A DNA stretch of 64,000 nt from assembly GCA_965206845.1 (NCBI GenBank), contig OZ242221.1, positions 1,536,001 through 1,600,000 on the forward strand. Reading direction: 5' to 3'. Positions 1 through 25,055 of this stretch are shown here, piece by piece. This DNA is from Cenarchaeum sp. Its GTDB lineage: Archaea; Thermoproteota; Nitrososphaeria; Nitrososphaerales; Nitrosopumilaceae. The position numbers were made by a program, and so were the translations under genes. How positions within the stretch are numbered: the first letter of the stretch is position 1; the number at the start of each line of letters is the position of its first letter. The notes below the pieces were generated by a model, which worked only from the letters and a program-made list of their open reading frames with translations, ran no database searches and was not told the origin of the DNA.

Positions 1-3000
1 ACGGTCGACTGGGGAGACGGCAGCACCACCACGCATACGGGGGATGCCACGCACGTGTACGGTGTCGCCGGAACCTACACTGTTCAGATATCCGGCGACT
101 TTACCAGAATCTATCTGGGCGGCGGCGAGGCCAACGCGCAAAAGCTGCAGTCGATAGAGCAATGGGGGGACGTCGGATGGGATTCAATGATGTCGGCATT
201 TTATGGAGCGACAAACATGGTATACAACGCAACGGATGCCCCGGACTTATCCGGCGTGACCAGCATGGCAGACATGTTCCACAACGCCGCCCTCTTTGAC
301 GGCGACATCTCCGGCTGGGACGTCTCGTCGGCGACTGACATGGGCAGCATGTTCTTCAACGCCCGCTCCTTCAACCAGCCCCTCAACGGATGGAACGTCT
401 CATCCGTGGAAGACATGTCTTTTATGTTCAGCGGAGCCACCTACTTTGACCAGCCCCTCAACGGATGGAACGTCTCATCCGTGGAAGACATGTCTTTTAT
501 GTTCAGCGGAGCCACCTACTTTGACCAGCCCCTCAACGGATGGAACGTCTCATCCGTGGAAGACATGTCTTTTATGTTCAGCAGTACCTCTTTCTTTAAC
601 CAGCCTCTTGACTCCTGGGACGTCTCGTCGGTGGCCGACATGAACAGAATGTTCGCCGGCGCCACCGCCTTCAACGGCGACATCTCAAACTGGAATGTTT
701 CGTCTGTCACCGACATGAGCGGGATGCTGTCTCGGGCTTATGCCTTTGATCAGAATTTAGGTGACTGGTACATCGTCTTGGATGATGCGGCTATCGATTA
801 CGGTGACGCGCCAGGGGTCGTCGGAAGTATATCTGCACAAAACCAGGCTCTCAACTATCAGAGTCCTGCATATCGTCTGGGATCGGGCGGCGACTCTGAC
901 TTTTTTGAGATGGATGGCGCCCGTCTCAAAATGAAGGGCACTCCTGCGAAAGGCTCGTATTTTGTAACTCTGACTGCCACCGGCGACTTTGGCAGATCCA
1001 ATTCAAAGGTGGTGGAAGTTACAGTTACCGGAGTCCCTGCAGGTGTTGATGCCGTTCCCATAGTAGTCAGATCCACGACTGCAGACTACTTTGTGCTATA
1101 TGTGCGGCACGCTCTGGATCCGGACACGACGGTGGAGATGCCTGTCTTGGCGGTTCTTGGTGAAAACGGCACGACGGCACTTGCCGAGAGCGTGGAGGCG
1201 CTTTCCAAGGAGCGCTACCGGGTGGAGAAATACCTAGTCGCCGACCCTGCCGACGTTGACGGCGACGGCATCGACGATGTCACAGAACTCTCAGATCCGG
1301 TGGGCATGAACCCTGTGAACCCGGTCACCGCGTTAGATCCCGGCGACGGTGCCGTGTCTATTCCTGACTGGGACACATTCAAGGCGTTATCCTTTGACAT
1401 TCTTGGGATGAATTTTACGACCGTCAAGTTCGTCATACTCCACGCGGATACCGCCCTCCCGCATGTCTACTTTATGAACGGCACAAAGTATCCGGCGCAT
1501 TCTATCTTTCTGGATGTCCTAGGCGTCACGTCGTACTACGATGATTACATAACCGGTTCGATTACCTATGACCCGGAAATCGTTGCCCCCGATGGCAGCC
1601 TAGGAGTCTACCATTACGAGTTATCCTGGTGGACCACTGATACTCCGTTCAACCTGGTGGATCGCACTTATACCCTGCTTGCCGCAAACATGCCCCTGCT
1701 TGAGGACAACTTGGCCTTGCATGTGAGCAACCGTGAACTTCCGCTTTTCCAGTCCGACTTGCCATTATATGCAGCATCCCGCGTCAACCTCGTATTCGAC
1801 GACGACATACTCCCCGAAACCGACTTCCTTGCGTTGAATCCTGGAGAAGGGTACGGCATGCTGCAGACCATGGAACCAGACGAGCGCCCCAACCCCCGTG
1901 ACGTGGTAATCTACGAGGCGCTGCCCAACGAGCTGCCCCGCGTCGCCGGCATCATCAGCACCGTGCCTCAAACGCCGCTCTCGCATGTCAATCTGCGCGC
2001 CGTTCAAGACAGCGTGCCCAACGCCTTCATCCGCGACGTCCTAGAAGACGCCGGCATCGACGATCTTATCGGCAGCTACGTCTACTACAACGTGACCGAG
2101 GACGGATGGGACCTGCGCGCAGCCACCCGCGCAGAAGTCGATGCCCACTACGGTCATTCTCGGCCTACCGGGGAACAGGTGCCGCAACGGGATCTCTCGG
2201 TAACGTCGATCACCCCCCTCAGTGATGTTGGCTTTGAGGACTGGGAGGCGTTCGGCGTCAAGGCGGCGAATGTGGCCGTGCTGGGAAAGATGGGTTTCCC
2301 TGAAGGGACCGTCCCGGACGGGTTCGCGGTGCCGTTTTATTTCTACGACGAGTTCATGAAGGCCAACGGGCTCTACGCCCGCATCGATGCCATGCTGGCC
2401 GACCCTGCCTTACAGACTGACTTCGATGTCCAGGAGGACGAGCTCAAGAAGCTGCGCAAGGCGATAAAGAAGGCAGAGACACCCGCGTGGATAATCACGG
2501 AGCTAGAGGAGATGCACGGGGAGTTTTCCAATGGGATCTCCCTGCGCTACAGGTCCAGCACCAACAACGAGGATCTCCCCGGTTTCAACGGCGCGGGACT
2601 GTACGACTCCAAGACCCAGGATCCAGAGGAGACCGAGGAGGACGGCATCGACAAGTCCCTCAAGTCGGTGTACGCCAGTCTGTGGAACTTTCGCGCCTTC
2701 ACCGAACGCGACTTCCATCGTATCAATCACACGGAGGCCGCGATGGGAATCCTGGTGCACCCCAACTATTCCGACGAACTAGCTAACGGCGTGGCCGTCA
2801 GCTTTGATCCAGTCCGTGACAGCGACGGGAATTACTACGTCAATACCCAGATCGGCGAGGATCTGGTCACCAATCCCGAGGTATACTCGATACCGGAGGA
2901 AATACTGTTGGACCGGTACGCCGATCAGTACACCGTCCTTGCCACCTCCAACCAGGTGCCGCCGGGGCAACTTCTCATGAGCGACGACCAGCTGTATCAG

Positions 3001-6000
3001 TTACGCCTGCACCTTGCCACGATCCATGAGGAGTTTGCAGATCTGTACGGTGTCGGGCCCGGCGAGCGGTTTGCCATGGAGATCGAGTTTAAGATCACCA
3101 GCGAGGACATTCTTGCGATCAAGCAGGCCCGACCATGGATCTTCAACTCCGAGCGATCCCATGTGATAGACGGTACCCCGCCGGTCTTCAGCTCCGCCAC
3201 GTACGACAAAGGCACAGGCGTCCTTGCGATAACCCTCAGCGAGGACATATCCGGGACGGCAGATCTTGCCAAGTTGCATGTACGTGAATCCGGCCAACCC
3301 TCCAGCGGCACTGCCCTGACAGGTGCCACCCAATCCATCGTAGGCTACACCATCATCATAACACTCACAGACTCCCAGAGGACGGCGGTCAACGACATGA
3401 CGGCGCCCACGCTGGACATAGACGCGGGTGCCGTCTCAGACGGAATCGACCACATACTGGTCACCCGGGATCGGGCAATCACCATTGTCAACAGCGATCC
3501 CGTTGTCGACGCCGGCCCAGACCAGACCGTGGACGAGGGATACTTGGTAACACTCAACGCCACTGTCACCGATGCCGACGGCGACAACATGACCTACTCG
3601 TGGACGCACGACTCGCCTTTGGCCATCCAGCTGGCCAACCCTGCCTCGCCGTCCACCACCTTTGCCGCTCCGGCAGTCGACGCGGACACGGAAATAACAT
3701 TCACGCTGACTGCCGATGACGGAACCGTCACTGCCTCAGACTCGCTTGCAGTTACCGTCACCGACGTGCCAACTGTCAACAGCCCGCCTGTCGCCGATGC
3801 CGGCCCAGACCAGACCGTGGACGAGGGATACTTGGTAACACTCAACGCCACTGTCACCGATGCCGACGGCGACAACATGACCTACTCGTGGACGCACGAC
3901 TCGCCTTTGGCCATCCAGCTGGCCAACCCTGCCTCGCCGTCCACCACCTTTGCCGCTCCGGCAGTCGACGCGGACACGGAAATAACATTCACGCTGACTG
4001 CCGATGACGGAACCGTCACTGCCTCAGACTCGCTTGCAGTTACCGTCACCGACGTGCCAACTGTCAACAGCCCGCCTGTCGCCGATGCCGGCCCGGACAA
4101 GACCGTCCAAGAGGGCCAGGCAGTCACGCTCAACGGAACCGCCACCGATACCGACGGTGACGGTCTGACGTACGCGTGGAGCCACGACTCGTCCACGGAA
4201 ATAACATTCAACGCCTCCTCGCCGGTTGCCACGTTTGCAGCGCCGCCGGTGGATGCCGACACGACAGTCACCTTCACGCTGGCAGTCTCCGACGGCTCGG
4301 CCAATTCCACCGACGCCGTTCTTGTCACCGTGATCGACGTGCCGGACGACTCGGACTTTGTCACGACGTGGGAGACTGCTGCACCGGGTGAGTCCATAAC
4401 GATCCCGGCCCGCGGCACGTACACGATATCATGGGGCGACGGAACGGTGGACGCGGGAGTCACGGGCGACCAGACCCACGCGTACGACGTCCCCGGGAAC
4501 CACACGATCCGCATATCCAAGGGCATCACTGGAATCAACCTGGGCAACCATGCCGACGCGCCCAAGCTGAGATCGATAGACCAGTGGGGCGACGCCAAGT
4601 GGAGTACGATGTATTCCGCATTCAGGGACGCCTCAAGCATGACATTGCGCGCGGCTGACGCGCCGGACCTCTCCCGTGTCAAGTACACCCAGTACATGTT
4701 CTTGAACGCCAGCTCCTTTGACGGCGACCTCTCCGCGTGGGACGTCTCGCATGTCACCAACATGGTGGGAATGTTCTGGGAGGCCAGCTCCTTTGACGGC
4801 GACCTCTCTGCGTGGGACGTCTCGAGCGTGACTGACATGTTTACCATGTTCTACAATGCCCGCTCCTTTGACGGGAACATATCCGCGTGGGACGTCTCGT
4901 CCGTAAGAAACATGGCCAACATGTTCCACGGCGCCTCGTCATTTGACGGCGACCTCTCCGCGTGGGATGTCTCGTCGGTGACTGACACGTATGCCATGTT
5001 TTTGGCCGCGTCCTCCTTTGACGGCGACCTCTCCGGCTGGGACGTCTCGCGCGTGACTGACATGGCCGACATGTTCCGCTCTGCCTCGTCATTTGACGGC
5101 GACGTCTCCGGCTGGGACGTCTCGCGCGCGACCCGCATGAGTACCATGTTCTACCTCGCCGACTCGTTTGACCAGAACCTGGGGGAATGGTACATCGTGC
5201 TCGACGATGCCGCCATTGACCACAGCAGCGTCCCAAGGGAGGTGGGCAGGATCGCCGCACAGAACAGGTTCCTGGATGGCCATAACCCGGCATACGGCAT
5301 AGGCTCCGGGGGCGATTCGGCCCACTTCGAGATCGACGGCAGCATCCTCAAGATGAAGTCGGTGCCTGACGGGCACGCCGGCCCGTACTCGGTCACCGTA
5401 ACTTCCACCGGAGCATACGGCTCGGAAAACTCCCGCACCTTTGACATATCCGTGACGGAAGGGGACGCCAACACGCCACCGGTGGCGTCGTCTGGCCCAC
5501 GCGGCGTGGACGGGTTCACCCTGACCAGCACCCAGCCCGGAACGATCGAGGTAACTTGGGATGCCCCCGGCGAGGCGCCCAGAGACTACCGCGTGGCGTG
5601 GGCCAAAGTAGGTGAGAACTTTTTGTCGCGTAGTGACCTGACAGGCAACGCTTTTCCCACGTCCCCCAACCACACCATCACGGGTCTCGAGGGCGGAGAG
5701 TACCAGGCGAAGGTGCGCGCCCGGTACAACAGCGGCGGAGCGGGGAACTGGAGCGAGGTGGCCACCGTCACGGTTTTGGCGCCGCCCGACCCGCGCGGGA
5801 TAGGCGAGATCAACCTGACCAGCGCCCAGCCCGGTACGATCCAGGTCTCCTGGGAGGCGCCCGGCGAGGCGCCTAGGGACTACCGCGTAGCGTGGGCCGA
5901 GGTGGGCGAGAGCTTCCTGGGGCGGAGTAACTTGGACGGCAACGCTTTTCCCACCTCACCCAACCACACCATCACGGGTCTCGAGGAGGGCGAGGAGTAC

Positions 6001-6084
6001 AAGGTGAAGGTGCGCGCCCGTTACAGTGATAACGGCCCGGGTGACTGGAGCGACGAGGTCACTATCACCGTCGCGAGATCCTAG
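1..6084 (+). CDS. Giant mosaic surface protein, 5' end outside the window: DUF285/BspA-like repeats, PEP-utiliser/dikinase module, PKD-like repeats, second DUF285 block, two FN3 domains
   Basis: Frame is open from base 1 (TVDWGDGS). It has WDVSSVTDMxxMF repeats, LSHVNLRA, GVKAANVA, RSSTNNEDLPGFNGAGLY and KQARPW motifs, DAGPDQTV PKD starts and FN3-type WxAP..Y.V.W..Y.VKVRARY motifs. Confidence 0.85.
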   Translation, partial: TVDWGDGSTTTHTGDATHVYGVAGTYTVQISGDFTRIYLGGGEANAQKLQSIEQWGDVGWDSMMSAFYGATNMVYNATDAPDLSGVTSMADMFHNAALFDGDISGWDVSSATDMGSMFFNARSFNQPLNGWNVSSVEDMSFMFSGATYFDQPLNGWNVSSVEDMSFMFSGATYFDQPLNGWNVSSVEDMSFMFSSTSFFNQPLDSWDVSSVADMNRMFAGATAFNGDISNWNVSSVTDMSGMLSRAYAFDQNLGDWYIVLDDAAIDYGDAPGVVGSISAQNQALNYQSPAYRLGSGGDSDFFEMDGARLKMKGTPAKGSYFVTLTATGDFGRSNSKVVEVTVTGVPAGVDAVPIVVRSTTADYFVLYVRHALDPDTTVEMPVLAVLGENGTTALAESVEALSKERYRVEKYLVADPADVDGDGIDDVTELSDPVGMNPVNPVTALDPGDGAVSIPDWDTFKALSFDILGMNFTTVKFVILHADTALPHVYFMNGTKYPAHSIFLDVLGVTSYYDDYITGSITYDPEIVAPDGSLGVYHYELSWWTTDTPFNLVDRTYTLLAANMPLLEDNLALHVSNRELPLFQSDLPLYAASRVNLVFDDDILPETDFLALNPGEGYGMLQTMEPDERPNPRDVVIYEALPNELPRVAGIISTVPQTPLSHVNLRAVQDSVPNAFIRDVLEDAGIDDLIGSYVYYNVTEDGWDLRAATRAEVDAHYGHSRPTGEQVPQRDLSVTSITPLSDVGFEDWEAFGVKAANVAVLGKMGFPEGTVPDGFAVPFYFYDEFMKANGLYARIDAMLADPALQTDFDVQEDELKKLRKAIKKAETPAWIITELEEMHGEFSNGISLRYRSSTNNEDLPGFNGAGLYDSKTQDPEETEEDGIDKSLKSVYASLWNFRAFTERDFHRINHTEAAMGILVHPNYSDELANGVAVSFDPVRDSDGNYYVNTQIGEDLVTNPEVYSIPEEILLDRYADQYTVLATSNQVPPGQLLMSDDQLYQLRLHLATIHEEFADLYGVGPGERFAMEIEFKITSEDILAIKQARPWIFNSERSHVIDGTPPVFSSATYDKGTGVLAITLSEDISGTADLAKLHVRESGQPSSGTALTGATQSIVGYTIIITLTDSQRTAVNDMTAPTLDIDAGAVSDGIDHILVTRDRAITIVNSDPVVDAGPDQTVDEGYLVTLNATVTDADGDNMTYSWTHDSPLAIQLANPASPSTTFAAPAVDADTEITFTLTADDGTVTASDSLAVTVTDVPTVNSPPVADAGPDQTVDEGYLVTLNATVTDADGDNMTYSWTHDSPLAIQLANPASPSTTFAAPAVDADTEITFTLTADDGTVTASDSLAVTVTDVPTVNSPPVADAGPDKTVQEGQAVTLNGTATDTDGDGLTYAWSHDSSTEITFNASSPVATFAAPPVDADTTVTFTLAVSDGSANSTDAVLVTVIDVPDDSDFVTTWETAAPGESITIPARGTYTISWGDGTVDAGVTGDQTHAYDVPGNHTIRISKGITGINLGNHADAPKLRSIDQWGDAKWSTMYSAFRDASSMTLRAADAPDLSRVKYTQYMFLNASSFDGDLSAWDVSHVTNMVGMFWEASSFDGDLSAWDVSSVTDMFTMFYNARSFDGNISAWDVSSVRNMANMFHGASSFDGDLSAWDVSSVTDTYAMFLAASSFDGDLSGWDVSRVTDMADMFRSASSFDGDVSGWDVSRATRMSTMFYLADSFDQNLGEWYIVLDDAAIDHSSVPREVGRIAAQNRFLDGHNPAYGIGSGGDSAHFEIDGSILKMKSVPDGHAGPYSVTVTSTGAYGSENSRTFDISVTEGDANTPPVASSGPRGVDGFTLTSTQPGTIEVTWDAPGEAPRDYRVAWAKVGENFLSRSDLTGNAFPTSPNHTITGLEGGEYQAKVRARYNSGGAGNWSEVATVTVLAPPDPRGIGEINLTSAQPGTIQVSWEAPGEAPRDYRVAWAEVGESFLGRSNLDGNAFPTSPNHTITGLEEGEEYKVKVRARYSDNGPGDWSDEVTITVARS
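374..582 (+). repeat. Near-perfect 66-bp tandem repeats encoding 22-aa DUF285 units
   Basis: accagcccctcaacggatggaacgtctcatccgtggaagacatgtcttttatgttcagc occurs three times in tandem. Confidence 0.9.
3510..4086 (+). repeat. 288-bp tandem duplication of a PKD-like domain
   Basis: Two essentially identical 96-aa units (AGPDQTVDEGYLVTLNAT...DVPTVNSPPVAD) offset by 288 bp. A near-identical copy occurs near 14,715-15,000. Confidence 0.9.
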
Positions 6085-6324
6085 CTATGCCACGGGGATA
6101 AAGTCCGTGCATGTTTTGCCGAACTGCAGTATATGGAAATTATGTCTGCTAGTCATTGGAGTCCACCTCCGCCCATTTTGGGTTCTTTTCCCTGATCGCT
6201 TCTGTCGCCTTTTTGGCAATTAATTCCCAAGGAACCTTACGGCTGTGTCCTACGGGCATATATGAACTGGAATTGACTCTGTAGATTTGATTCATTTGGA
6301 AAAACATCCTCGTCGTAGTCGTGG

Positions 6325-6445
6325 CAGTGGATCGACCCCTTGATAACCATGTGCTCCGCGCACTTTCATTTGAATGGGGCAATCCGAGCTGCTGTGTTCC
6401 TGTGCTTCGCGCACTGATAGGTGATTGCAGCTTCCGATCCATCGA
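6325..6445 (+). ncRNA. Candidate bridge/seek RNA of the IS110 element
   Basis: Outer stem TGGATCG/CGATCCA encloses two internal loops, each with a GTGCTyCGCGCAC hairpin. The loop strands match the element junction sequences. The transcribed strand is assumed. Confidence 0.55.
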
Positions 6446-6474
6446 AAACAATCCGCAAGGAGATGAGAGAAAGG

Positions 6475-7554
6475 ATGAGGAACATAGGAATAGACATTGG
6501 TAAGGGAAAATGCATAGTATGCGTAGTGGACGGCAAGGGAAACGTGCTGGAGAGGGCATCATACAAGAACACGCTGGAAGACGCAAAAGAGTTTGCACGC
6601 AGGATGAAAAAAGAATACGGCGGGAAAGGACGGTGCAGGGCCGCGTGCGAGTCGACTGGAAACATGTGGCTCAAGACATTTGAGGCCTTCGAGGGGTGCG
6701 AGATACCGGTAAAGCTTGCCAACACGTACAAGATGAAGATAATATCGGACACCGACGTCAAGACGGATCCCATCGACGCGCAAAAGATTGCAAACGCGCT
6801 GCGCGTGGGGATTATCCCAGAATGCTACGTGGCACCATCGGATTTGCGCGATGTCAGGGAACTGCTCAGGTACAGGATAAGCATGGTTCAGGCAAGGACT
6901 GCCCTGATCAACTACACGCACGGCCTGCTTGACAAGTACGACGTGATGCCAGATGTCTCAAGGATGCACAGCAAAAAGGCCATCAGGCTGCTTTCGCAGA
7001 TACGCCTTAAGAAACCAAATGACAACATGATCCTGCAAAACTGCGTCAAAAGGATTGCACATGCCACAGAGGAGATATCTGGCATCGAGGCAGAGATAGA
7101 CAGGCAGGCCGCAGTCAACGAGGATGCGAAACTGCTGATGAGCATGACTGGCATAGAGGCGTTTGCCGCGATGCTGCTGGTATCTGCGATTGACGGCATC
7201 ACCAGGTTCAAGACCGCAGACAGACTGGTCTCATGGACCGTGATGTGTCCGCGAGTCTACCAGTCCGGCAACGTGACGCACCACGGCCGCATGAAAAAGG
7301 CGTCAAACCGAAGGGTAAACTGGATAATGATCCAAGCAGCCAACGTGGCAGTGCGCCATGATGACAGACTAAAGTGGTTCTATCAAAATGCCAAGACAAG
7401 GCACGGTGGCAACCACCCGATTGCCATAACACACGTGGCAAACAAGATGGTGAGGATCATCTGGAAGATGCTGACTGCCAAGGAACCGTACGAGTCCCAT
7501 GACGCAAGCAGATATGCCAAAAAGATGAAAAGAATGAAGAAGATTCTGCAGTAG
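6475..7554 (+). CDS. IS110-family transposase/recombinase (DEDD RuvC-like domain + Tnp20 domain)
   Basis: GIDIGK, CESTG and KTDPIDA give the DEDD residues. YQSG carries the catalytic Ser. C-terminal HVANKMVRIIWKML. Likely start is MRNIGID at 6475. Confidence 0.95.
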   Translation: MRNIGIDIGKGKCIVCVVDGKGNVLERASYKNTLEDAKEFARRMKKEYGGKGRCRAACESTGNMWLKTFEAFEGCEIPVKLANTYKMKIISDTDVKTDPIDAQKIANALRVGIIPECYVAPSDLRDVRELLRYRISMVQARTALINYTHGLLDKYDVMPDVSRMHSKKAIRLLSQIRLKKPNDNMILQNCVKRIAHATEEISGIEAEIDRQAAVNEDAKLLMSMTGIEAFAAMLLVSAIDGITRFKTADRLVSWTVMCPRVYQSGNVTHHGRMKKASNRRVNWIMIQAANVAVRHDDRLKWFYQNAKTRHGGNHPIAITHVANKMVRIIWKMLTAKEPYESHDASRYAKKMKRMKKILQ

Positions 7555-8044
7555 GTGCACGGGGCGGACTGGCCAGCTAGGCTGGCCCGCACCAGTACAT
7601 TTTCTGCAATCCAATTCCTAGCGATAGCTTTAAAGTTGTACGCGCGTAACCTAGGCGTGGATCAGAAGTCAGACGGAATCAACGCTTGACTATGACCGGA
7701 TGTTTTAACATAGGTGGTTATGTCTGTAGGACACAGCCGAACCTTACAGTTTGCATATATTGATGAAGGCAGCCCAAGGCTGAACGGTGCAAGCCAGACC
7801 GGGGAAAGGTCCAAAATAAACCGCACATACTATGTGGATTCCGACAGACCCGTTAAACAGTGTACAAAATGCCGCATTCACGCCGGAATGCCCGCACCAT
7901 GGCAGCGTCACGGACGCTGGACGTCTCTGCCCGACCCGACACACATGGCATCTGGCATGCATCTCAGGTTCCAGGCACGGATCTGGTCTCACATGACGGC
8001 CCGCAGAGCACTGAACCCGTGTGATAATGGCATTACAAGCGATC

Positions 8045-8125
8045 GGCTGTGTCCTAAAGGAATATGCCCGTTTGGATGGTGGCTTCTGGATGGCCATTTT
8101 GGATATTTGCTTGTAGGGCACAGCC
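8045..8125. mobile_element. 81-bp MITE with GGCTGTGTCCTA-type ends
   Basis: GGCTGTGTCCTA at 8045 and TAGGGCACAGCC ending at 8125 (one mismatch). No TSD is visible. Confidence 0.65.
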
Positions 8126-8127
8126 AT

Positions 8128-8235
8128 TTTTTAGCTACTGTCCATATTGTCTAATTTGTAAATCTTTTTAGCTAATGCTTATATTGTCTAATTTGTAAAT
8201 CTCTTTAGCGTATGATGCGTATTGCTCGATTTGTA
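8128..8235 (+). repeat. AT-rich 37-bp tandem repeat (two good copies, one degenerate) upstream of the surface-protein gene
   Basis: tttttagctactgtccatattgtctaatttgtaaatc / tttttagctaatgcttatattgtctaatttgtaaatc / tctttagcgtatgatgcgtattgctcgatttgta. Confidence 0.8.
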
Positions 8236-8261: not shown

Positions 8262-11200
8262 ATGATGAAGGCGCTTATAGTGGTGCTCGCGCTAGTGCTA
8301 CCTAGTTTGCTGGGCTACGCCCTTGCGACACCCTCCATCGCCATGTCTCCTGTTGCGTTTGTGGCCGACGGGGTGGACGGGTTTGAGGAGCTTGGCGGGC
8401 CAAAAGGCATCACCACAGTCACGATCGGCTCCTCGACGTATGCCCTTGTTGCCGCATACGACGACGACGGCGTCCAGATAGTCGACATCACGGATCCCTT
8501 CAACCCGAGCCCCGTTGCGGCCGTAACCGACGGGGTGGACGGGTTTGAGGAGCTTCGCGGTGCGCGCGGCATCACCACCGCTACGGTCGGCTCCTCGACG
8601 TACGCACTTGTCACGGCAGCTGCCGGCGTCCAGATAATCGACATAACGACTCCCTCCAGCCCGGCCCCGACCGCGCACATAAGCGCTGCCTCTGCTGTCG
8701 CCCTCCGTGGCTCGTACGGCATCGCTACGTTTACAGTCGGATCCTCTGCGTATGCCATTGTCGCATCAAGCTCAGGCGGCATCCAGATAATCGACATCAC
8801 GGATCCCTCCAGCCCGGCCCCCGTCGCATCCATATTGGGCGGAAGCGAGCTCGGCGGGCTCGGCGGAGCGCGCGGCATCACCACGACCACGATCGGCTCC
8901 TCGACATACGCCCTTGTTGCCGTATCCAGCGAAGACGCCGTCCAGATAATCGACATTACAGATCCCTTCAACCCGAGCCCCATTGCAGCCGTACGCAGTA
9001 GTCAAGATAACAGGCTTGACGGCGCAACTGGCATCACCACCGCCACCATTGGCTCCTCTACATACGCCCTTGTTACGGCGCAGTACGATAACGCCGTCCA
9101 GATAATCAACATCACGGATCCCTCCAGCCCGGACTCCGTTGCATTCGCGCAGGACGGAAGCGGTGGGTTTGACAAACTTGAATATCCTGAGAGCATCGCC
9201 GTCGTCACGTTCGACTCCTCGACGTACGCCATCGTCGCGGCATTCCTGGACGGCATCCAGATAATAAACATCACGGATCCCTCCAACCCCAGCCCTGCAG
9301 CCTCTGTGGACAGCAATGACGCCAGATTTGGCGGCTTTCCGCTTCCCGAAGACATCGCCGTCGTCACGATAGACTCCAGGACGTACGCCCTTGCCGCATC
9401 CTATTTTGGTAACGGTGTCCAGATAATCGATGTAGCCCTCACCTCCGGCCCGCTGCTAACGTCGGCCGTCTTGGACGAGGGAACAGGCATCTTGGAGATC
9501 GAATTTGCGAGTGCAGTCGATGTCACTCCCGCAGGCATGGCTGATCTGTCCGGATTGACCATCCGTGGTTCCGGACAGTCCGTTTCGCTGGCCGGGGCGA
9601 CGCTGGGAACCGAGGCGGACTCCACCGTAATCTCCATCGAGCTGACCGAGGGCCAGGGCCGCTCAGTCGCCGCCATGGCGTCCCCGCGGTTGGATGTGGC
9701 AGACTCTGCCGTGACAGGAACGGACGGCAACCCGATCGAACAATCGTTAGGCAATACCGTCACCGTAAACGATGACGCGGCGCCTGGGGTCGTATCTGCG
9801 GCCTTTGACGGGGAGGGCAGCATCCTGACTATCACGTTTTCAGACAGGATCGACGTCACGCCTGCCCGCATGGTTTACCTGGGAGGGATGACCGTCAGCG
9901 GCTCCGGGCAGTCCGTTTCGCTGGCAGGGGCGACTTTGGGAACGGAGGCCGACTCTGCTGTAATCTCCATCGTGCTGACCGAGAGCCAAGGCAGCTCAGT
10001 CGTCGCCATGGTGTCCCCGCTGTTGGCCATAGGCCACTATGACGTAGTAGACACGGATGGCAACCCGATCGCGTCTTCGTCCGGCAATGCCATCTCCATA
10101 AACAGTGTAAACGAGATTCCGACCGTCACATCGATCGAGCGGAGCGACCCGACAACGGAGACCGCCTCCGCGCAGACCCTTGTCTTTGCTGTGACCTTCA
10201 GCGAAAACGTGGCCGGCGTGGACCAGGCAGACTTTGCGCTGTCGCCTGGTAGCACCGGGGCGGGAAGCATAGCAAACCTGACCGGCTCCGGCAGCCGGTA
10301 CCTCGTGACCGTCTCGGTCACGCGGGACGGGACATACAATCTCGACATCGCACAGAACAACAACATCACCGATGCCACGGGCAATCCTCTGGCAGGCGAC
10401 GACCCGTTGCCGGATCAGTCGTTCACTGTGGTGACTGTAAACACGGCACGTGAAGTAGGCGGGATCACCCTGACCAGCACCCAGCCCGGGACGATCCAGA
10501 TAACCTGGGAGGCTCCCAGCGAGGCGCCCAAGGACTACCGCGTGGTGTGGGCCAAGGCGGGCGAGAACTTTCTGCCGCGGAGTGACCTAGCAGGCAACGC
10601 TTTTCCGACCTCTCCTAACCACACCATCACGGATCTAGAGGAGGGTGAAGAGTACAAGGTAAAGGTGCGCGCCCGATACTACAGCGGCGGGCCCGGGGAC
10701 TGGAGCGGCGTGGTCACCCCCATGCTTGCCGTAATCCCGGACCAGACCGTTGACGCCGGCCCCGACCAGACCGTCATGGAGGGCCAGACGGTTGCACTGA
10801 ACGGCACTGCCGCCGACATCAACGGTGATCCGCTGACCTACTCGTGGATCCACGACTCGGCCCTGGCCATACAGTTTGCTAACGCCACCTCTCCGTCCAC
10901 CACCTTTACCGCGCCTGCAGTCTACGCGGACACTGCAGTGACCTTCACGCTGACTGTCAATGACGGCAACAGCACCGCCTCCGACCAGATGACAGTTACC
11001 ATCGCCCACAACGACCCGCCGACCTTCGTCACGTCTGAATTTGACACTGACGCGGGGGTGCTGACGATCACCTTTTCAGAAACGATAGACGTGGCAAACG
11101 TAGTCCCTGCCAAGATGCACGTAAGGGAGTCGGGGAATTACACGCACGGCACAACCCTGACTGCCGGCGAGCTTGTCACTGTCGCCGACGGCGCCACGAT

Positions 11201-14200
11201 CTCGTTTACCCTCACTGAACCGCACCGCACGGCAGTCGCGAGACTGGCCGCGCCGGAACTGACGATCGAGCCGGGGGCGGTGCGGGACGCGTCTGGCAAC
11301 CTCATAGTCGGCACCTTTGATGCCTCCACCCGAACGTTCGTTGACGCCACCAGCATCCGACCACAGGAAAACGCTCCAACAGACATCGCGTTCTCAAACG
11401 ACGGCACCAAGATGTTTGTGATGGGCACTGTCGGAGACGACGTAAACGAATACACGCTGTCCACCCCGTTTGATGCCTCCACCCGAACGTTCGTTGACGC
11501 CACCCCCATATCATCAGAAGAAACTCTTCCAACAGACATGGTGTTCTCAAACGACGGCACCAAGATGTTCGTGATAGGCACTGACGGAGCCGACGTAAAC
11601 GAGTACACGCTGTCCACCCCGTTCGATGCCTCCACCCTAACGTTCGTTGACGCCACCTCCATATCGTCACAGGACGGCCAACCACGAGGCATGGCGTTCT
11701 CAAACGACGGCACCAAGATGTTCGTGCTAGGCAATGCCGGAGACGACGTAAACGAGTACACGCTGTCCACCCCGTTCGATGCCTCCACCCTAACGTTCGT
11801 TGACGCCACCTCCATATCGTCACAGGTAGTCAGACCACAAGGCATCGCGTTCTCAAACGACGGCACCAAGATGTTCGTGCTAGGCAATGCCGGAGACGAC
11901 GTAAACGAATACGCGCTGTCCACCCCGTTCGATGCCTCCACCCTAACGTTCGTTGACGCCACCTCCATATCATCAGAAGAAACTTTTCCAACAGGCATGG
12001 TGTTCTTAAACGACGGCACCAAGATGTTCATAATAGGCATTATCGGAGACGACGTAAACGAATACGATCTGAGCTCCGTCTATCCAATTACGGTGACAAG
12101 GACGCCACCGATCTTTGTCGCGTCCGAACTTGACATTGACGCGGGGGTGCTGACGATTACCTTTTCAGAAACGATAGACGCGGCAAGTATAGTTCCGGCC
12201 AAGATCCACGTAAGGGAGTCGGGGAATTACACGCACGGCACAACCCTGACTGCCGGCGAGCTTGTCACTGTCGCCGACGGCGCCACGATCTCGTTTACCC
12301 TCGCTGAACCGCACCGCGCCGCAGTCGCGAGACTGGCCACGCCGGAACTGACGATCGAGCCGGGGGCGGTACGGGACGCGTCTGGCAACCTCATCGTCGG
12401 CACCTTTGATGTCTCCACCCAAACGTTCGTTGACGCCACCGACATCTCATCACAGGAAACCCAACCACGAGACATCGCGTTCTCAAACGACGGCACCAAG
12501 ATGTTCATAGTAGGCGATGTCAGAGACAACGTAAACGAATACACGCTGTCCACCCCGTTCGATGCCTCTACCAGAACGTTCGTTGACGCCACCAGCATCC
12601 GAGCACAGGACGGCGATCCACGAGGCATGGCGTTCTCAAACGACGGCACCAAGATGTTCGTGATAGGCTATAACGGAGACAACGTAAACGAGTACGCGCT
12701 GTCCGCCCCGTTCGATGCATCCACCCTGACGTTCGTTGACGCCACCAGCATCCGAGCACAGGAAGACGATGCACGAAGTGTAGCGTTCTCAAACGACGGC
12801 ACCAAGATGTTCGTGATGGGCGTTGTCGGAGACGACGTAAACGAATACACGCTGTCCACCCCGTTTGATGCCTCCACCCGAACGTTCGTTGACGCCACCT
12901 CCATATCATCAGAGGAAACTTTTCCAACAGGCATGGTGTTCTCAAACGACGGCACCAAGATGTTCGTGATAGGCTGGGAAGAGTACGTAAACGAGTACGC
13001 GCTGTCCACCCCGTTCGATGCCTCCACCCGAACGTACGTTGACGACACCTCCATATCATCAGAGGAAGTCGATTCACAAGGCATCGCGTTCTCAAACGAC
13101 GGCGCCAAGATGTTCATAATAGGCATTATCGGAGACGACGTAAACGAATACGATCTGAGCTCCGTCTATCCCGTTACGGTGACAAGGGCGCCCCCGATGA
13201 CTGCCGGGGCGCTTGTCACCCTGTGGAACGTGGCAGCCAGTCCGCACACGATCTCCATGCCCCTGAATGTGCATTCCGGGGGAACGCTTTCCATAGACTG
13301 GGGCGACAACAGCACTGACACTGTCGCCGCCAACGGCACGCAGTCGCACACGTACGCGGTCCCGGGCGAGTACCGGGTGTCCATGACCGGAGACCTTGCC
13401 AGGATAAACCTGGCCGCTACCGGTTCCACGGCATCCAAGCTGGCATCCATCGACCAGTGGGGCGACATAGAATGGTCCTCCATGAAAGGCGCGTTCTGGG
13501 GAGCCTCCGGCATGGAATACAAGGCAGCCGACGCGCCGGACCTGTCGCGCGTGGCCTCGATGCAGAACATGTTCCGTGCCGCTGCCTCCTTTGATGGCGG
13601 CCTGTCCTCTTGGAACGTCTCGGCCGTGGCCAACATGGACGGCGCGTTCCGCGGCGCCTCGGCGTTCAAAGGAGACATCTCTACTTGGGACATGTCCGGC
13701 GTGACTGACATGAGGACGATGTTCCAGGACACCGCCGCCTTCAACGGCGACATCTCCGGCTGGAACGTCTCGTCGGTGACCAACATGAATTCCATGTTCT
13801 CAGGCGCCTCCTCCTTCGACCAACCCCTCGACTCCTGGAACGTCTCGTCGGTGACCAACATGAATTCCATGTTCTCAGGCGCCTCCTCCTTCAACCAACC
13901 CCTCGACTCCTGGAACGTCTCGTCGGTGGAAGACACGTCCTACATGTTCTCAGGCGCCACCGCCTTCAACCAGCCCCTTGACTTCTGGGACGTCTCGTCT
14001 GTGACCGACATGAACAGCATGTTTGGCTTGGCCACCTCCTTTGACGGCGACATATCTGACTGGGTCGTCTCGTCTGTGACCGACATGAACAGCATGTTCT
14101 CTGGTGCCGACTCCTTTGACCAAAACTTGGGCAAATGGTACATCGTGCTTAATGACATGACCATCGACTATAATGATGCACCAGGAATTGTCGGAAGCAT

Positions 14201-24251: not shown

Positions 24252-25055
24252 TTGTGGCACCTATTGGTGCAACAACAGTACGTGTCTGTTGGAGGGCACA
24301 AGACTCGCTATCTTGAGTGTGGCGGATCCGGTGACTTCCTCGTCTTTCTGCACGGACTGGGAGCATCTGCAGATAGGTGGGAGTTTGTGGCGCCGCTCTT
24401 TGGGAAGCACTTTCGTGTCATCATTCCAGATTTAATCGGATTTGGATACAGCGACAAGCCTGCAGTTGACTATACCATGGAGTTCTTCTCAGATTTTCTG
24501 GGCAGCTTTTTGGATGAGTTGGGCATACGCAAGGCCCACATAGTTGGCTCATCCCTGGGCGGGCAGATATCTGTCGAGTTTACTGCAGACAACAACACTC
24601 GCGTCAAAAAACTGGTCCTGGTGTCCCCGTCTGGAACCATGCGCACCGCGACTCCTGCCTTGGATTCCTATACCATGGCCGCGCTGTACCCCAACATTAA
24701 GTCCGCTCGACGCGCCTTTGCGGCCATGGATGCATTTCCAAAACGCATACCGAATCACATCATAGAGGACTTTGTCAGCAGGATGAAGCTACCAAATGCC
24801 AAGATGGCATACATGTCGACCCTGCTGGGCCTCAATAACTCAGCAGATGTCCGGAGCAGGCTTGACAGGATCCGCGTTCCAACCATGCTGATCTGGGGAG
24901 ATATGGATCCTGTAATACCACAGAACTACTCCCGTGAGTTTGTCTCCGCTATTGAGAACTGCGTCTACCGGCGCATGCCGAAGTCGGGCCACACCCCGTA
25001 CGTGGATAACCCAGATGGCTTTTACAGGCATGTGAAGGGCTTTCTTATTACCTGA
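24252..25055 (+). CDS. Alpha/beta-fold hydrolase
   Basis: HGLG oxyanion loop, GSSLGG nucleophile elbow, WGDMDP and GHTP. The start may be GTG near 24267. Confidence 0.9.
   Translation: MWHLLVQQQYVSVGGHKTRYLECGGSGDFLVFLHGLGASADRWEFVAPLFGKHFRVIIPDLIGFGYSDKPAVDYTMEFFSDFLGSFLDELGIRKAHIVGSSLGGQISVEFTADNNTRVKKLVLVSPSGTMRTATPALDSYTMAALYPNIKSARRAFAAMDAFPKRIPNHIIEDFVSRMKLPNAKMAYMSTLLGLNNSADVRSRLDRIRVPTMLIWGDMDPVIPQNYSREFVSAIENCVYRRMPKSGHTPYVDNPDGFYRHVKGFLIT

What the first reader, a model, noticed from the sequence alone, without database searches (positions are those of the whole stretch)
6325..6445. Candidate archaeal bridge RNA whose two guide loops match the element's own junctions
Seen: the ~180-nt leader folds by eye into an outer stem TGGATCG(6328-34)/CGATCCA(6435-41) with two parallel arms. 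Arm 1 is CCCC-loop-GTGCTCCGCGCAC-loop-GGGG. Arm 2 is AGCTGC-loop-GTGCTTCGCGCAC-loop-GCAGCT. The 3' loop strand of arm 1 contains TTCATTTG (6365-72), identical to the left junction (6291-98). That of arm 2 contains ATAGGTG (6417-23), identical to the right junction/target flank (7710-16). Known: IS621 bridge RNAs have two internal loops that pair with target and donor DNA. Inference: this is a programmable recombinase guide RNA. Two points differ from the known cases as I recall them: the long matches are on the 3' loop strands, and the RNA lies upstream although the element has IS1111-like IRs. I could not identify clean partner guides on the 5' strands.
Basis: partly seen in the sequence, partly recalled or inferred. 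Interest (0 to 1): 0.8.

Follow-up and report, generated by a model that had tools for sequence, protein, structure and literature searches.

The report
Archaeal IS110-family bridge RNA
The leader in front of this archaeal transposase gene is very probably a genuine bridge RNA, a two-loop guide that tells the enzyme which DNA to cut and join, built like the known bacterial ones but in a new arrangement.

Summary
Window 6299-7716 is an IS110-family element (DEDD_Tnp_IS110 + Transposase_20) in an archaeal, probably Nitrosopumilaceae, genome. It sits inside an ~80-bp MITE. Its leader, 6327-6443, folds into an outer stem with two arms, each an internal loop capped by a hairpin.

In 18 homologous leaders 17 of 26 base pairs show compensatory changes. 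All four loop strands track the DNA of their own element, in the training loci and in 65 hold-out loci. The arm-1 3' strand equals the left target plus core TG. The arm-2 3' strand equals the right end plus core. The arm-2 5' strand is complementary to the ancestral left end.

The guide order is that of IS1111 seekRNAs and the subterminal inverted repeats are long, yet the RNA lies upstream as in IS621. I did not find this combination described.

The window copy lacks 8 nt of its left end, which removes most of that last match. No transcript evidence was available.

Verdict: a new variant of a known kind, moderately interesting.

The parts
6232..6240 (.). 9-bp target-site duplication of the MITE (GAACCTTAC); second copy at 7739-7747
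   Evidence: Read. Other MITE copies carry their own 9-bp duplications (copy c2 GCAAACACA, empty site GCGGCAGTC).
6241..6298 (.). Left part of the ~80-bp MITE that is the insertion target. It carries the terminal inverted repeat GGCTGTGTCCTAC (6241-6253), the left target TTCATT (6291-6296) and the core TG (6297-6298).
   Evidence: An uninterrupted MITE at G000 262119-262204 joins window ~6298 directly to ~7717. Metagenome contigs show the same joint, 6296->7715.
6299..7716 (+). IS110-family insertion sequence, 1418 bp counting the right-hand core TG (7715-7716). It is a truncated-left-end variant that lacks the 8 nt AACACATG present in copy c3 and in all outgroups.
   Evidence: Ends were defined by copies c2, c3 and c4 and by the empty site. 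The 8-nt loss shows against c3 and against the 73%-identical relatives.
6301..6309 (.). Left subterminal inverted repeat AAAACATCC. It pairs with 7698-7706 (GGATGTTTT). It also overlaps an A-rich TATA-like stretch about 25 nt before the RNA start; the promoter reading is inference.
   Evidence: Read. Homologues keep a repeat at the same place with different sequence, for example TAACCACCCC/GGGGTGGTTA in L021 and GTAAACATCC/GGATGTTTAC in L022.
6327..6443 (+). Bridge RNA core, 117 nt: outer stem 6327-6334/6435-6442, arm 1 (target-binding) 6336-6379, arm 2 (donor-binding) 6387-6432.
   Evidence: Covariance model R1 scores 125.8 bits. 92.7% of cells are paired and 17 of 26 pairs are compensatory in 18 sequences. 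In 70 distinct sequences the figures are 94.7% and 20 of 26. G-U pairs occur only when read on the + strand.
6340..6350 (+). Arm-1 5' loop strand TTGATAACCAT. The right-target guide ATAAC (6343-6347) plus CA (6348-6349) is complementary to the top strand TG-GTTAT (7715-7721).
   Evidence: The tracking counts in the full report score the six-position guide GATAAC (6342-6347): own guide versus own right flank 4.38 of 6 against 1.50 for other elements, 0 of 10000 permutations. Hold-out set 4.07 against 1.57.
6364..6375 (+). Arm-1 3' loop strand TTTCATTTGAAT. It holds the left-target guide TTCATT (6365-6370), the core TG (6371-6372), and AA (6373-6374) matching the first two bases of the ancestral left end.
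   Evidence: Identical to 6291-6298. Tracking is 4.53 of 7 against 1.53, and in the hold-out set 4.50 of 6 against 1.49. AA equals left-end bases +1,+2 in 37 of 47 junctions, but these positions are almost invariant.
6393..6401 (+). Arm-2 5' loop strand TGTGTTCCT. The right-donor guide TGTGTT(C) is complementary to (G)AACACA, the ancestral left end. In this copy that end is deleted and only 3 Watson-Crick pairs plus 1 G-U of 6 remain.
   Evidence: 5.19 of 6 against 3.80 for other elements, 0 of 10000 permutations. Compensatory examples are AATACA/AGTATT in L022, TACACA/TGTGTA in L024 and AAGGCA/AGCCTT in L026.
6415..6426 (+). Arm-2 3' loop strand TGATAGGTGATT. It holds the left-donor guide ATAGG (6417-6421) plus the core TG (6422-6423), identical to the right end 7710-7716.
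   Evidence: 5 of 5 in all 13 elements, with four variants (ATAGG, ATGGA, ATAGA, ACAGA) that change together with the right end. For L025, L026 and L027 the end was located with the guide itself, so that part is circular.
6459..6466 (+). Shine-Dalgarno-like box GGAGATGA (GGAGGTGA in copies c2 and c3 and in nearly all homologues)
   Evidence: Alignment of leaders.
6475..7554 (+). Transposase/recombinase gene, 359 aa from ATG 6475. An in-frame GTG at 6421 would give 377 aa but lies inside the RNA.
   Evidence: Pfam DEDD_Tnp_IS110 1.7e-23 and Transposase_20 4.9e-21. D7, E59, D98, D101 and S264 are invariant in 13 homologues. IGID, KTDxxD and YQSG align with the ISCro4 transposase, PDB 9t56.
7618..7635 (+). 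Conserved promoter-like block CTAGCGATAGCTTTAAAG in the right end (TATA-like TTTAAA 7629-7634), pointing out of the element. The promoter reading is inference.
   Evidence: Conserved as CTAGCGTTAGCTATAAA in relatives with 47-73% protein identity.
7655..7665 (+). Second copy of the outer-stem 5' strand (GCGTGGATCAG), 20 nt after the TATA-like box and complementary to the bridge RNA's outer 3' strand
   Evidence: It covaries with the outer 3' strand. The longest Watson-Crick run averages 5.31 for own pairs against 3.76 for other elements, and runs of 6 or more occur in 18 of 39 against 24 of 1042.
7698..7706 (.). Right subterminal inverted repeat GGATGTTTT
   Evidence: reverse complement of 6301-6309.
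7717..7738 (.). Right part of the MITE: right target GTTATG (7717-7722) and terminal inverted repeat GTAGGACACAGCC (7726-7738)

Best explanation
Window 6327-6443 (+) encodes the bridge RNA of an archaeal IS110-family insertion sequence (6299-7716).

The RNA is an outer stem holding two arms. Each arm is a basal stem, an internal loop and a capping hairpin. Arm 1 is the target-binding loop. [quoted passage not shown] Arm 2 is the donor-binding loop. [quoted passage not shown] By analogy with IS621, the DEDD/Ser recombinase encoded just downstream would use this RNA to bring together the circularised element (junction ...ATAGG-TG-AACACA...) and the target TTCATT-TG-GTTAT inside a MITE, and exchange strands at the TG core.

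What is shown here: the fold, its covariation, guide-DNA covariation on all four strands, site-specific occupancy, and reprogrammed loops in a sister copy. What is inferred: that the RNA is made, that it binds the recombinase, the circular intermediate, and the order of strand exchange.

The window copy and copy c2 keep an intact RNA and open reading frame. The window copy, c2 and c4 all lack the 8 nt AACACATG of the left end, so the right-donor guide match is degraded.
For: 1. **Protein.** Pfam DEDD_Tnp_IS110 and Transposase_20. The catalytic-type residues are invariant and align with the ISCro4 and IS621 transposases.

2. **Ends and target.** Four copies and an empty site in the same genome define the ends, the TG core and the MITE target.

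3. **Structure.** In a MAFFT alignment of 18 leaders (39-100% protein identity) 92.7% of cells pair, against 34-51% when partners are slid. 17 of 26 pairs have changes on both sides, and 0 of 500 shuffles reach this. In 70 distinct sequences aligned to the model the figures are 94.7% and 20 of 26.

4. **Guides, training loci**, own element against other elements:
   - left-target guide 4.53 of 7 against 1.53;
   - right-target guide 4.38 of 6 against 1.50;
   - left-donor guide 5 of 5 against 4.18;
   - right-donor guide 5.19 of 6 against 3.80;
   - each with 0 of 10000 permutations reaching the observed total.

5. **Guides, hold-out.** 65 loci whose loops were not used to derive the rule. Left side 4.50 of 6 against 1.49, with 5 or more matches in 23 of 40 against 10 of 1777. 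Right side 4.07 against 1.57, with 5 or more in 18 of 42 against 5 of 1845.

6. **Linkage.** Model R1 finds the RNA just upstream, on the same strand, in 76 of 79 named loci that encode a homologous transposase.

7. **Natural reprogramming.** Copy c3 is 92% identical. 5 of its 9 differences in the 117 nt lie in the arm-1 loop strands. Its loops predict CCCTT-TG-GTTTAC. Three paralogues of its left flank read AACCTT- or AGTCTT-TG-ATTTAC.

8. **Occupancy.** Of 8 MITE copies, 3 of the 4 with (T/C)TCATT-TG-GTTATG are occupied. None of the 4 with GCGCGTT-TG-GCTATG is.

9. **Population variants.** Variants in metagenome contigs fall on guide positions 6345, 6366-6368 and 6395.
Against: - There is no evidence of a transcript. 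No RNA run holds the sequence, and contigs cannot show RNA ends.
- Rfam 15 gave no match at E up to 10 other than noise.
- The 186-nt leader is not unusually stable (z +0.41).
- In the window copy the right-donor guide pairs with only 3 Watson-Crick plus 1 G-U of 6 positions of its own left end.
- Copy c3's present right flank matches its guide at 0 of 6 positions. This is explained only by assuming a later rearrangement.
- Junctions could not be located in 15 (left) and 17 (right) of the 65 hold-out loci, and some located ones match poorly: 5 of 40 on the left and 14 of 42 on the right have 3 or fewer of 6.
- The two bases after the core in arm 2 do not track the right target (15 of 62; 1787 of 10000 permutations do as well).
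- Homologues are kin, so the shuffle and permutation figures overstate independence.
Confidence: 0.9

Rival explanations
1. The functional RNA is longer than the 117-nt core, and its transcription unit is split between the two ends. A promoter and a second copy of the outer-stem 5' strand lie in the right end (7618-7665). A full transcript would then be made only when the ends are joined in the circular intermediate. This extends the best explanation rather than excluding it.
For: A TATA-like block is conserved in the right end and is followed 20-25 nt later by a sequence complementary to the RNA's outer 3' strand, which changes with it. Runs of 6 or more occur in 18 of 39 own pairs against 24 of 1042 for other elements. 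Promoters created by joining the ends are reported for ISEc11 and ISEc21 (PMC11187229, passages). Weak bridge RNA expression from integrated IS621 is reported in PMC13626964 (abstract).
Against: No transcript data. The left end has its own A-rich TATA-like stretch at a suitable distance (6299-6307, inference). In 21 of 39 elements the complementary run is 5 or shorter. No circle junction was seen in the contigs laid. The tool's promoter scan is for bacterial sigma-70 and was not used.
Confidence: 0.3
2. The RNA family is real, but the window copy itself is an immobile relic, because its left end lacks the 8 nt that the right-donor guide reads.
For: AACACATG is missing in copies c1, c2 and c4 but present in c3 and in every outgroup. 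Guide pairing falls from 6 of 6 in c3 to 3 plus 1 G-U of 6. The Shine-Dalgarno box is mutated in c1.
Against: Between c1 and c2 the MITE arms differ at 9 of 80 positions but the element at only 26 of 1418 (Fisher p 5e-5), and the RNA at 0 of 117. This suggests the truncated element entered already diverged MITE copies independently. The open reading frames of c1 and c2 are intact. With the core G kept opposite C6399, a hand alignment gives 5 of 7 positions still pairing, counting one G-U; no call computed this.
Confidence: 0.35
3. The leader is only a structured 5' UTR or a set of protein-binding DNA repeats, and the loop-junction matches are chance or copies made at the DNA level.
For: The 7- and 8-mers alone are not rare. 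The 186-nt leader has z +0.41. No RNA was detected.
Against: Compensatory changes including G-U pairs point to RNA pairing on the + strand. Both sense matches (3' strands) and antisense matches (5' strands) overlap at a shared core and change with each element's flanks. DNA copying would not produce that pattern.
Confidence: 0.03
4. The guide RNA lies downstream of the gene (7555-7709), as in IS1111 elements, and the upstream structure does something else.
For: The right end is long (162 nt) and partly conserved. The element has IS1111-like inverted repeats.
Against: The right end shares only one 7-mer with the target region. It lies outside the guide-covered bases, is about what chance gives (my rough estimate, not computed in a call), and is unchanged in c3 although c3's target differs. 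R1 finds no second copy there. All four guide strands map upstream.
Confidence: 0.03

Closest known systems
IS621 bridge RNA (IS110 group; Durrant 2024, PMC11208160, passages and section 12 read; Hiraizumi 2024, PMC11208158, passages read)
   Same: The RNA is upstream of a DEDD/Ser recombinase. It has two simple internal loops, the first for the target and the second for the donor. Each loop reads both DNA strands, with the 2-nt core covered twice. Two bases after the core in the target loop match the donor, like a handshake guide. The target is a genomic repeat.
   Different: [quoted passage not shown] The core is TG, not CT. The subterminal repeats are 9-10 bp, not 2-3 bp. The right end is long. 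The proteins are only distantly alike (E 5e-4 to 8wt6). The host is an archaeon.
IS1111-family seekRNAs (ISEc11, ISPa11, ISKpn4; Siddiquee 2024, PMC11187229, passages read)
   Same: The top-strand complement comes before the bottom-strand match in the RNA. The subterminal inverted repeats are long. Sister elements show natural reprogramming.
   Different: Those RNAs lie downstream of the transposase gene; here the RNA is upstream. The reported terminal extensions are 7 bp on the left and 3 bp on the right; here they are about 10 and about 8-10 bp. Here the donor is read by a simple internal loop. Durrant 2024 reports that in many IS1111 orthologues the donor-binding bases sit in a multi-loop.
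ISHvo10, ISAcp5 and ISMtsp17 (exceptions named in PMC11187229, passage read)
   Same: ISHvo10 and ISAcp5 are described as more diverged IS with long non-coding regions on both sides, which is the layout here (176 nt and 162 nt). ISMtsp17 is an IS1111 relative with its non-coding region upstream. The best plasmid hit to the window protein is an unnamed IS110-family element on a Haloarcula plasmid (33% identity) with the same layout, judged by eye.
   Different: The passages I read give no RNA structure or guide assignment for them. Supplementary figures could not be opened. I did not compare the sequences of those named IS.

Membership tests
IS110-family DEDD transposase (bridge recombinase) | RuvC-like DEDD domain plus Tnp domain | tested here: met
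   PF01548 1.7e-23 (residues 22-173 of the 377-aa frame) and PF02371 4.9e-21.
IS110-family DEDD transposase (bridge recombinase) | Catalytic D, E, D, D and Ser (D11, E60, D102, D105, S241 in IS621, per PMC11208158) | tested here: met
   D7, E59, D98, D101 and S264 are invariant in 13 homologues. IGID, E in CES/MEA, KTDxxD and Y(Q/E)SG align with ISCro4, PDB 9t56. The N-terminal part of that alignment is weak (1.7 bits).
Bridge RNA / seekRNA | Non-coding RNA encoded in a non-coding end of the element, beside the recombinase gene | tested here: inconclusive
   Position is met: 6327-6443, 31 nt before the ATG. The RNA is linked to the gene in 76 of 79 loci. A transcript could not be tested.
Bridge RNA / seekRNA | Two internal loops held by conserved helices | tested here: met
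   17 of 26 pairs compensatory and 92.7% paired; 20 of 26 and 94.7%.
Bridge RNA / seekRNA | Target loop complementary to both strands of the target, overlapping at the core | tested here: met
   In the window, TTCATT-TG and ATAAC-CA match TTCATT-TG-GTTAT. Covariation.
Bridge RNA / seekRNA | Donor loop complementary to both joined ends of the element | tested here: met
   Met in the family: left-donor guide 5 of 5, right-donor guide 5.19 of 6. In the window copy the left-donor guide is met, but the right-donor guide keeps only 3 plus 1 of 6 because of the 8-nt loss.
Bridge RNA / seekRNA | RNA binds the recombinase and is needed for transposition; changing the loops retargets it | not testable with these tools
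   Needs an experiment. The only evidence here is natural reprogramming in copy c3.
Rfam families | Match to a curated covariance model | tested here: not met
   No relevant match at E up to 10 in 5900-8200. I do not know whether Rfam 15 holds a bridge RNA model.
IS110 group (IS621-like) | RNA in the left end, upstream of the gene | tested here: met
IS110 group (IS621-like) | 5' side of each loop pairs with the bottom strand and 3' side with the top strand; subterminal repeats of only 2-3 bp | tested here: not met
   The order is reversed. The repeats are 9 bp, 6301-6309 with 7698-7706.
IS1111 group | Subterminal inverted repeats of 7-17 bp | tested here: met
   9 bp here and 9-24 bp in homologues, changing on both sides.
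IS1111 group | Top-strand complement 5' of the bottom-strand match in the RNA | tested here: met
IS1111 group | Guide RNA downstream of the gene; terminal extensions of 7 bp (left) and 3 bp (right) | tested here: not met
   The guides are upstream. The extensions are about 10 nt (ancestral left end) and 8-10 nt on the right, depending on whether the core TG is counted.
IS1111 group | Transposase branches with IS1111 relatives | not tested
   No tree with named reference IS was built. The only data are that the best plasmid hit is a Haloarcula element (33%) and that the matches to IS621 and ISCro4 are distant.

The most novel reading that the evidence does not exclude
The bridge RNA gene may be split across the element's ends. 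The right end carries an archaeal-type promoter and a covarying copy of the RNA's first helix strand, and the left end carries the guide body. A complete, well-expressed guide transcript, and the transposase mRNA behind it, would then arise only after the ends are joined in the excised circle. This would be an archaeal, RNA-level counterpart of bacterial junction promoters, in a third arrangement of bridge recombinase elements: RNA upstream, IS1111 polarity, long inverted repeats.
Probability: 0.3. Interest if true: 0.65.

Novelty: new variant of a known kind. Interest (0 to 1): 0.5.

Why it matters
Bridge RNA-guided recombinases are a recent class of programmable DNA rearrangement systems, and every characterised example is bacterial.

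- **Domain and host.** This locus and about 80 relatives indicate that the same logic operates in ammonia-oxidising archaea (Nitrosopumilaceae and Nitrososphaerales). These organisms lack genetic tools.
- **A ready-made series.** Natural retargeting can be read directly from sister copies. That gives candidate native, mesophilic archaeal recombinase-guide pairs with known targets.
- **A mixed layout.** The elements combine features used to separate the IS110 and IS1111 groups: RNA position on one hand, guide polarity and inverted repeat length on the other. [quoted passage not shown]
- **Evolution.** It adds archaeal bridge RNA sequences to the material behind the proposed link between IS110 recombinases with their bridge RNAs and archaeal Nop5 with C/D-box RNAs (bioRxiv 10.1101/2024.06.21.599552, passages read).

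Tried and rejected
- **RNA evidence.** The look-up of sequencing runs listed no RNA holder. Three runs guessed to be RNA hold only small parts. Laying contigs of X1, X3, X4 and X5 showed no circle junction and cannot show RNA ends. It gave the empty-site joint and the variants at guide positions.
- **Rfam.** Nothing relevant.
- **Energy z-score of the full leader.** Not significant.
- **Handshake guide in arm 2.** No association with the right target.
- **Target-matching sequence in the right end.** Only one 7-mer, judged to be chance.
- **Model R1 on the Haloarcula element L047.** No hit at E up to 1. Its similar layout was seen by eye only.
- **Copy c3's right flank.** It does not match its guide, and no copy of that flank next to the inferred target was found. 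A rearrangement is assumed, not shown.
- **Composite MITE::IS spread as the cause of the three truncated copies.** Considered, and made less likely by the arm-versus-body divergence. Gene conversion between copies is not excluded.
- **K-turn or C/D-box motifs in the loops.** Considered by eye and dropped, because the positions are not conserved.
- **Earlier-findings tool.** Closed.
- **Not attempted.** A tree against named IS1111 and IS110 references, a structure prediction and a complex prediction.
Full report
**1. What is there**

The window region 6100-7900 holds a 359-aa open reading frame, 6475-7554 on the + strand. It carries the two Pfam domains of IS110-family transposases, DEDD_Tnp_IS110 (1.7e-23) and Transposase_20 (4.9e-21).

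The genome is archaeal. The archaeal SSU model scores 1455 bits over its full length. The named relatives of the transposase are all from Nitrosopumilus, Cenarchaeum, Nitrosopumilaceae, Nitrososphaerales or Nitrosocosmicus assemblies, apart from two short contigs titled as bacterial bins.

**2. Ends, core and target**

The same genome holds three more copies:
- c2, 98% identical;
- c3, 92% identical, in a different context;
- c4, which has lost the leader and the first ~57 codons of the gene through a deletion between two short GGAAA..CAT repeats.

An uninterrupted site at G000 262119-262204 joins the window's left flank directly to its right flank.

- **Target.** It reads ...GATT(T/C)... TTCATT-TG-GTTATG..., with TG present at both ends of the inserted element.
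- **Host MITE.** The target lies in an ~80-bp element with 13-14-bp terminal inverted repeats and 9-bp target duplications that differ at each copy. In other words, it is a MITE.
- **Occupancy.** Of 8 MITE copies, 3 of the 4 with the matching site carry the IS. None of the 4 with GCGCGTT-TG-GCTATG does.
- **Independent view.** Metagenome contigs also show the empty-site joint 6296->7715.

**3. The observation**

- RNAfold returns the outer stem and both arms as the optimum.
- Energy alone is unremarkable for the 186-nt leader (z +0.41) and modest for the 117-nt core (z -2.09; 4 of 200 shuffles fold as well).
- The 8-mer and 7-mer are not rare in the window.

The case therefore rests on comparison with homologues.

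**4. Structure in homologues**

A protein search of 150 other genomes of the same family found homologues in 33 (this tally includes the unpublished genome G076, from which nothing else was used).

*First set: 18 leaders aligned with MAFFT.* I aligned leaders whose transposases are 39-100% identical to the window's and counted pairs for the structure I wrote down.
- 92.7% of 468 cells pair, against 34-51% when the 3' partners are slid by 1-3 columns.
- 17 of 26 pairs change on both sides.
- 0 of 500 column shuffles reach these values.
- All 8 outer-stem pairs and 7 of the 8 hairpin pairs covary. The arm-2 basal stem is nearly invariant, so it says little either way.
- G-U pairs (for example U-G in 6 sequences at pair 2/142) fit the + strand only.

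*Second set: covariance model R1.* A model built from this alignment (R1) finds the RNA just upstream of the gene, on the same strand, in 76 of 79 named loci. The three misses are L098, which has no upstream DNA; L129, whose gene is truncated at the N-terminus; and L118.
- On the 70 distinct sequences aligned to the model, 94.7% of cells pair and 20 of 26 pairs are compensatory. That alignment is fitted to the model, so it leans towards the structure.
- In a sample of 150 other genomes of the phylum, R1 hit 3 of 19 in the same family and 1 of 131 elsewhere. These are samples and do not prove absence.

**5. The loops are guides**

*The rule.* Homologues show a conserved left end, TG|AACACATG..., and a conserved right end...CATAGG-TG|.
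- **Arm-1 3' strand:** always [variable bases]-TG-AA. The variable bases equal the DNA just left of the element.
- **Arm-1 5' strand:** ends in C-A-T or a wobble variant. The six bases before that are the reverse complement of the DNA just right of the element.
- **Arm-2 3' strand:** equals the last five bases of the element plus TG.
- **Arm-2 5' strand:** the reverse complement of the first six bases of the element.

*Training loci.* Matches of each guide to its own element's DNA, against other elements' DNA:

| Guide | Own element | Other elements |
|---|---|---|
| Left-target | 4.53 of 7 | 1.53 |
| Right-target | 4.38 of 6 | 1.50 |
| Left-donor | 5 of 5 | 4.18 |
| Right-donor | 5.19 of 6 | 3.80 |

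For each guide, 0 of 10000 permutations reach the observed total. For three elements (L025, L026, L027) the right end was found with the left-donor guide motif itself, so the left-donor count is partly circular.

*Hold-out loci.* The rule was then applied unchanged to 65 loci whose arm-1 loops were not in the training set.
- **Left side:** 4.50 of 6 against 1.49. Five or more matches in 23 of 40 distinct guide/flank combinations, against 10 of 1777 for foreign guides.
- **Right side:** 4.07 against 1.57, with five or more in 18 of 42 against 5 of 1845.
- **Misses:** junctions could not be located in 15 (left) and 17 (right) of the 65.

**6. The window copy in detail**

- **Arm 1** reads TTCATT-TG (6365-6372) and ATAAC-CA (6343-6349). 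Together these cover the 13 bp TTCATTTGGTTAT of the MITE site.
- **Arm 2** reads ATAGG-TG (6417-6423), identical to the right end at 7710-7716.
- **The arm-2 5' strand,** TGTGTTC (6393-6399), is complementary to GAACACA. That sequence starts the element in c3 (CCTTTG|AACACATGGAAAAAC) and, with variants that change together with the guide, in every outgroup. These include the closest relatives at 73% protein identity.
- **The 8-nt loss.** Copies c1, c2 and c4 lack those 8 nt (TTCATTTG|GAAAAAC). In the window copy this guide pairs at only 3 Watson-Crick plus 1 G-U of 6 positions.
- **Is it still mobile?** This is open. Between c1 and c2 the MITE arms differ at 9 of 80 positions, but the element differs at 26 of 1418 (p 5e-5) and the RNA at 0 of 117. 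That argues for independent insertions of the truncated form. Gene conversion between copies is the alternative.

**7. Natural reprogramming**

c3 differs from c1 at 9 of the 117 RNA positions, and 5 of these lie in the 23 nt of the arm-1 loop strands. Its loops predict the target CCCTT-TG-GTTTAC.

Its left flank is the end of another repeated sequence. The three other copies of that sequence continue as AACCTT- or AGTCTT-TG-ATTTAC.

c3's present right flank does not continue that sequence (0 of 6 positions match). I assume a later rearrangement but cannot show one.

In metagenome contigs, variants fall at 6345, 6366-6368 and 6395, all of them guide positions.

**8. Comparison with known systems**

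| Feature | IS621 (IS110 group) | IS1111 group | This element |
|---|---|---|---|
| Position of RNA | upstream, in the left end | downstream, in the right end | upstream |
| 5' side of loop pairs with | bottom strand (8-9 nt) | top strand | top strand |
| 3' side of loop pairs with | top strand (4-7 nt) | bottom strand | bottom strand |
| Subterminal inverted repeats | 2-3 bp | 7-17 bp | 9 bp (6301-6309 with 7698-7706) |

- **Sources.** The IS621 and repeat-length entries come from PMC11208160 (passages and section 12). [quoted passage not shown]
- **Repeats.** In this clade the inverted repeats also change on both sides in homologues.
- **Geometry.** If the DNA is read on the other strand, the pairing geometry equals that of IS621. 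What differs is the orientation of the RNA and transposase genes relative to the asymmetric recombination site.
- **Handshake guides.** The AA after the core in arm 1 sits where IS621 has its target-loop handshake guide (PMC11208158, passages). It equals the first two left-end bases in 37 of 47 junctions, but both are almost invariant. The matching positions in arm 2 show no signal.
- **Named exceptions.** The seekRNA paper names ISMtsp17 (upstream non-coding region) and ISHvo10 and ISAcp5 (long non-coding regions on both sides). The passages I read do not describe their RNAs, and the supplements were closed.
- **Nearest plasmid hit.** This is a Haloarcula element (33% identity). By eye it has 11-bp inverted repeats and a leader segment identical to its right end. 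R1 does not detect it.
- **Solved structures.** The matches to the ISCro4 and IS621 recombinases are distant: E 7e-5 and 5e-4.
- **Literature searches.** 'bridge RNA' with 'Nitroso' found 2 unrelated papers. 'bridge RNA', 'IS110' and 'archaea' gave no paper describing an archaeal bridge RNA among the 25 listed. The six-term search gave none among its 20 listed. A 2026 preprint clusters bridge-recombinase-adjacent sequences widely (10.64898/2026.10.21.760802, passages) and may contain this clade without naming it.

**9. The right end**

The right end is 162 nt long. It has a hairpin and T-run after the stop codon. It then has a block conserved across the clade, CTAGCG(A/T)TAGCT(T/A)TAAA (window 7618-7635), which looks like an archaeal BRE/TATA promoter. 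That reading is inference.

Twenty to 25 nt later comes a short sequence (7655-7665) that resembles the outer-stem 5' strand and is complementary to the RNA's outer 3' strand. This complementarity follows the stem's sequence across elements. The longest run averages 5.31 against 3.76, and runs of 6 or more occur in 18 of 39 against 24 of 1042.

One reading is that transcription from the right end crosses the joined ends of the circle and yields a longer guide transcript. This is untested.

**10. Verdict**

The leader is a bridge RNA with high probability (0.9). It belongs to a thaumarchaeal clade of IS110-family elements that mixes IS110-group and IS1111-group features.

It is a new variant of a known kind, not a new mechanism. 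Transcript, protein binding and activity remain to be shown, and this particular copy has a damaged donor site.

Noticed in passing
window 6241-6298 and 7717-7738; G000 262119-262204, 863966-864051, 1096121-1096206, 1497507-1497592, 1505531-1505616: An ~80-bp MITE family with 13-14-bp terminal inverted repeats and 9-bp target duplications, 8 copies in the genome in two subfamilies. Only the subfamily whose internal site matches the guide loops is occupied by the IS (3 of 4, against 0 of 4).
   Followed up: partly
G000 678699-678814 (-), locus L009/L051: An orphan bridge RNA (R1 112.7 bits) with an intact left end (TG|AACACATG), a left flank that matches its own guide (TTAGT-TG) and a Shine-Dalgarno box, but no transposase gene behind it.
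   Followed up: partly
G000 443375-443494 (+), locus L005/L052: A second, diverged bridge RNA (104.3 bits) in front of a transposase fragment of about 190 aa (45% identity). It is a decayed member of another subfamily in the same genome.
   Followed up: partly
G000 1266749-1267885 (copy c4): This copy has lost the whole bridge RNA and the first ~57 codons of the gene, through a deletion between two short GGAAA..CAT repeats (window ~6302-6657).
   Followed up: partly
G000 92531-93130 (left flank of copy c3); paralogues near 24279, 675072, 1514986, 1363434, 1451112: Copy c3 sits at the end of another repeated sequence, a 99-nt block in 3 further copies preceded by a 438-nt block in 2 further copies. 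This may be another mobile element whose end serves as the target.
   Followed up: partly
window 7618-7665: A conserved TATA-like block, followed by a covarying copy of the bridge RNA's outer-stem 5' strand, in the right end of the element. See the novel case.
   Followed up: partly
L047 (Haloarcula sp. plasmid CP050016.1, 58711-62691): The best plasmid relative (33% identity) has long non-coding regions on both sides, 11-bp subterminal inverted repeats (GAAAATCCTGC/GCAGGATTTTC) and a leader segment TATAGGCG equal to its right end. This suggests the same layout in haloarchaea. It was seen by eye only.
   Followed up: partly
window 55-6084 and 8262-16994: The element lies between two very large open reading frames (2009 and 2910 aa) full of repeated modules that look like surface or adhesin-type proteins. 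No family search was run.
   Followed up: no
L098 and L104: Two contigs that carry close homologues (45-49% identity) are titled as bacterial bins (Kaiserbacteria, Gemmatimonadales). L104 has the archaeal-type bridge RNA upstream (58 bits). Mis-binning seems more likely than transfer.
   Followed up: no
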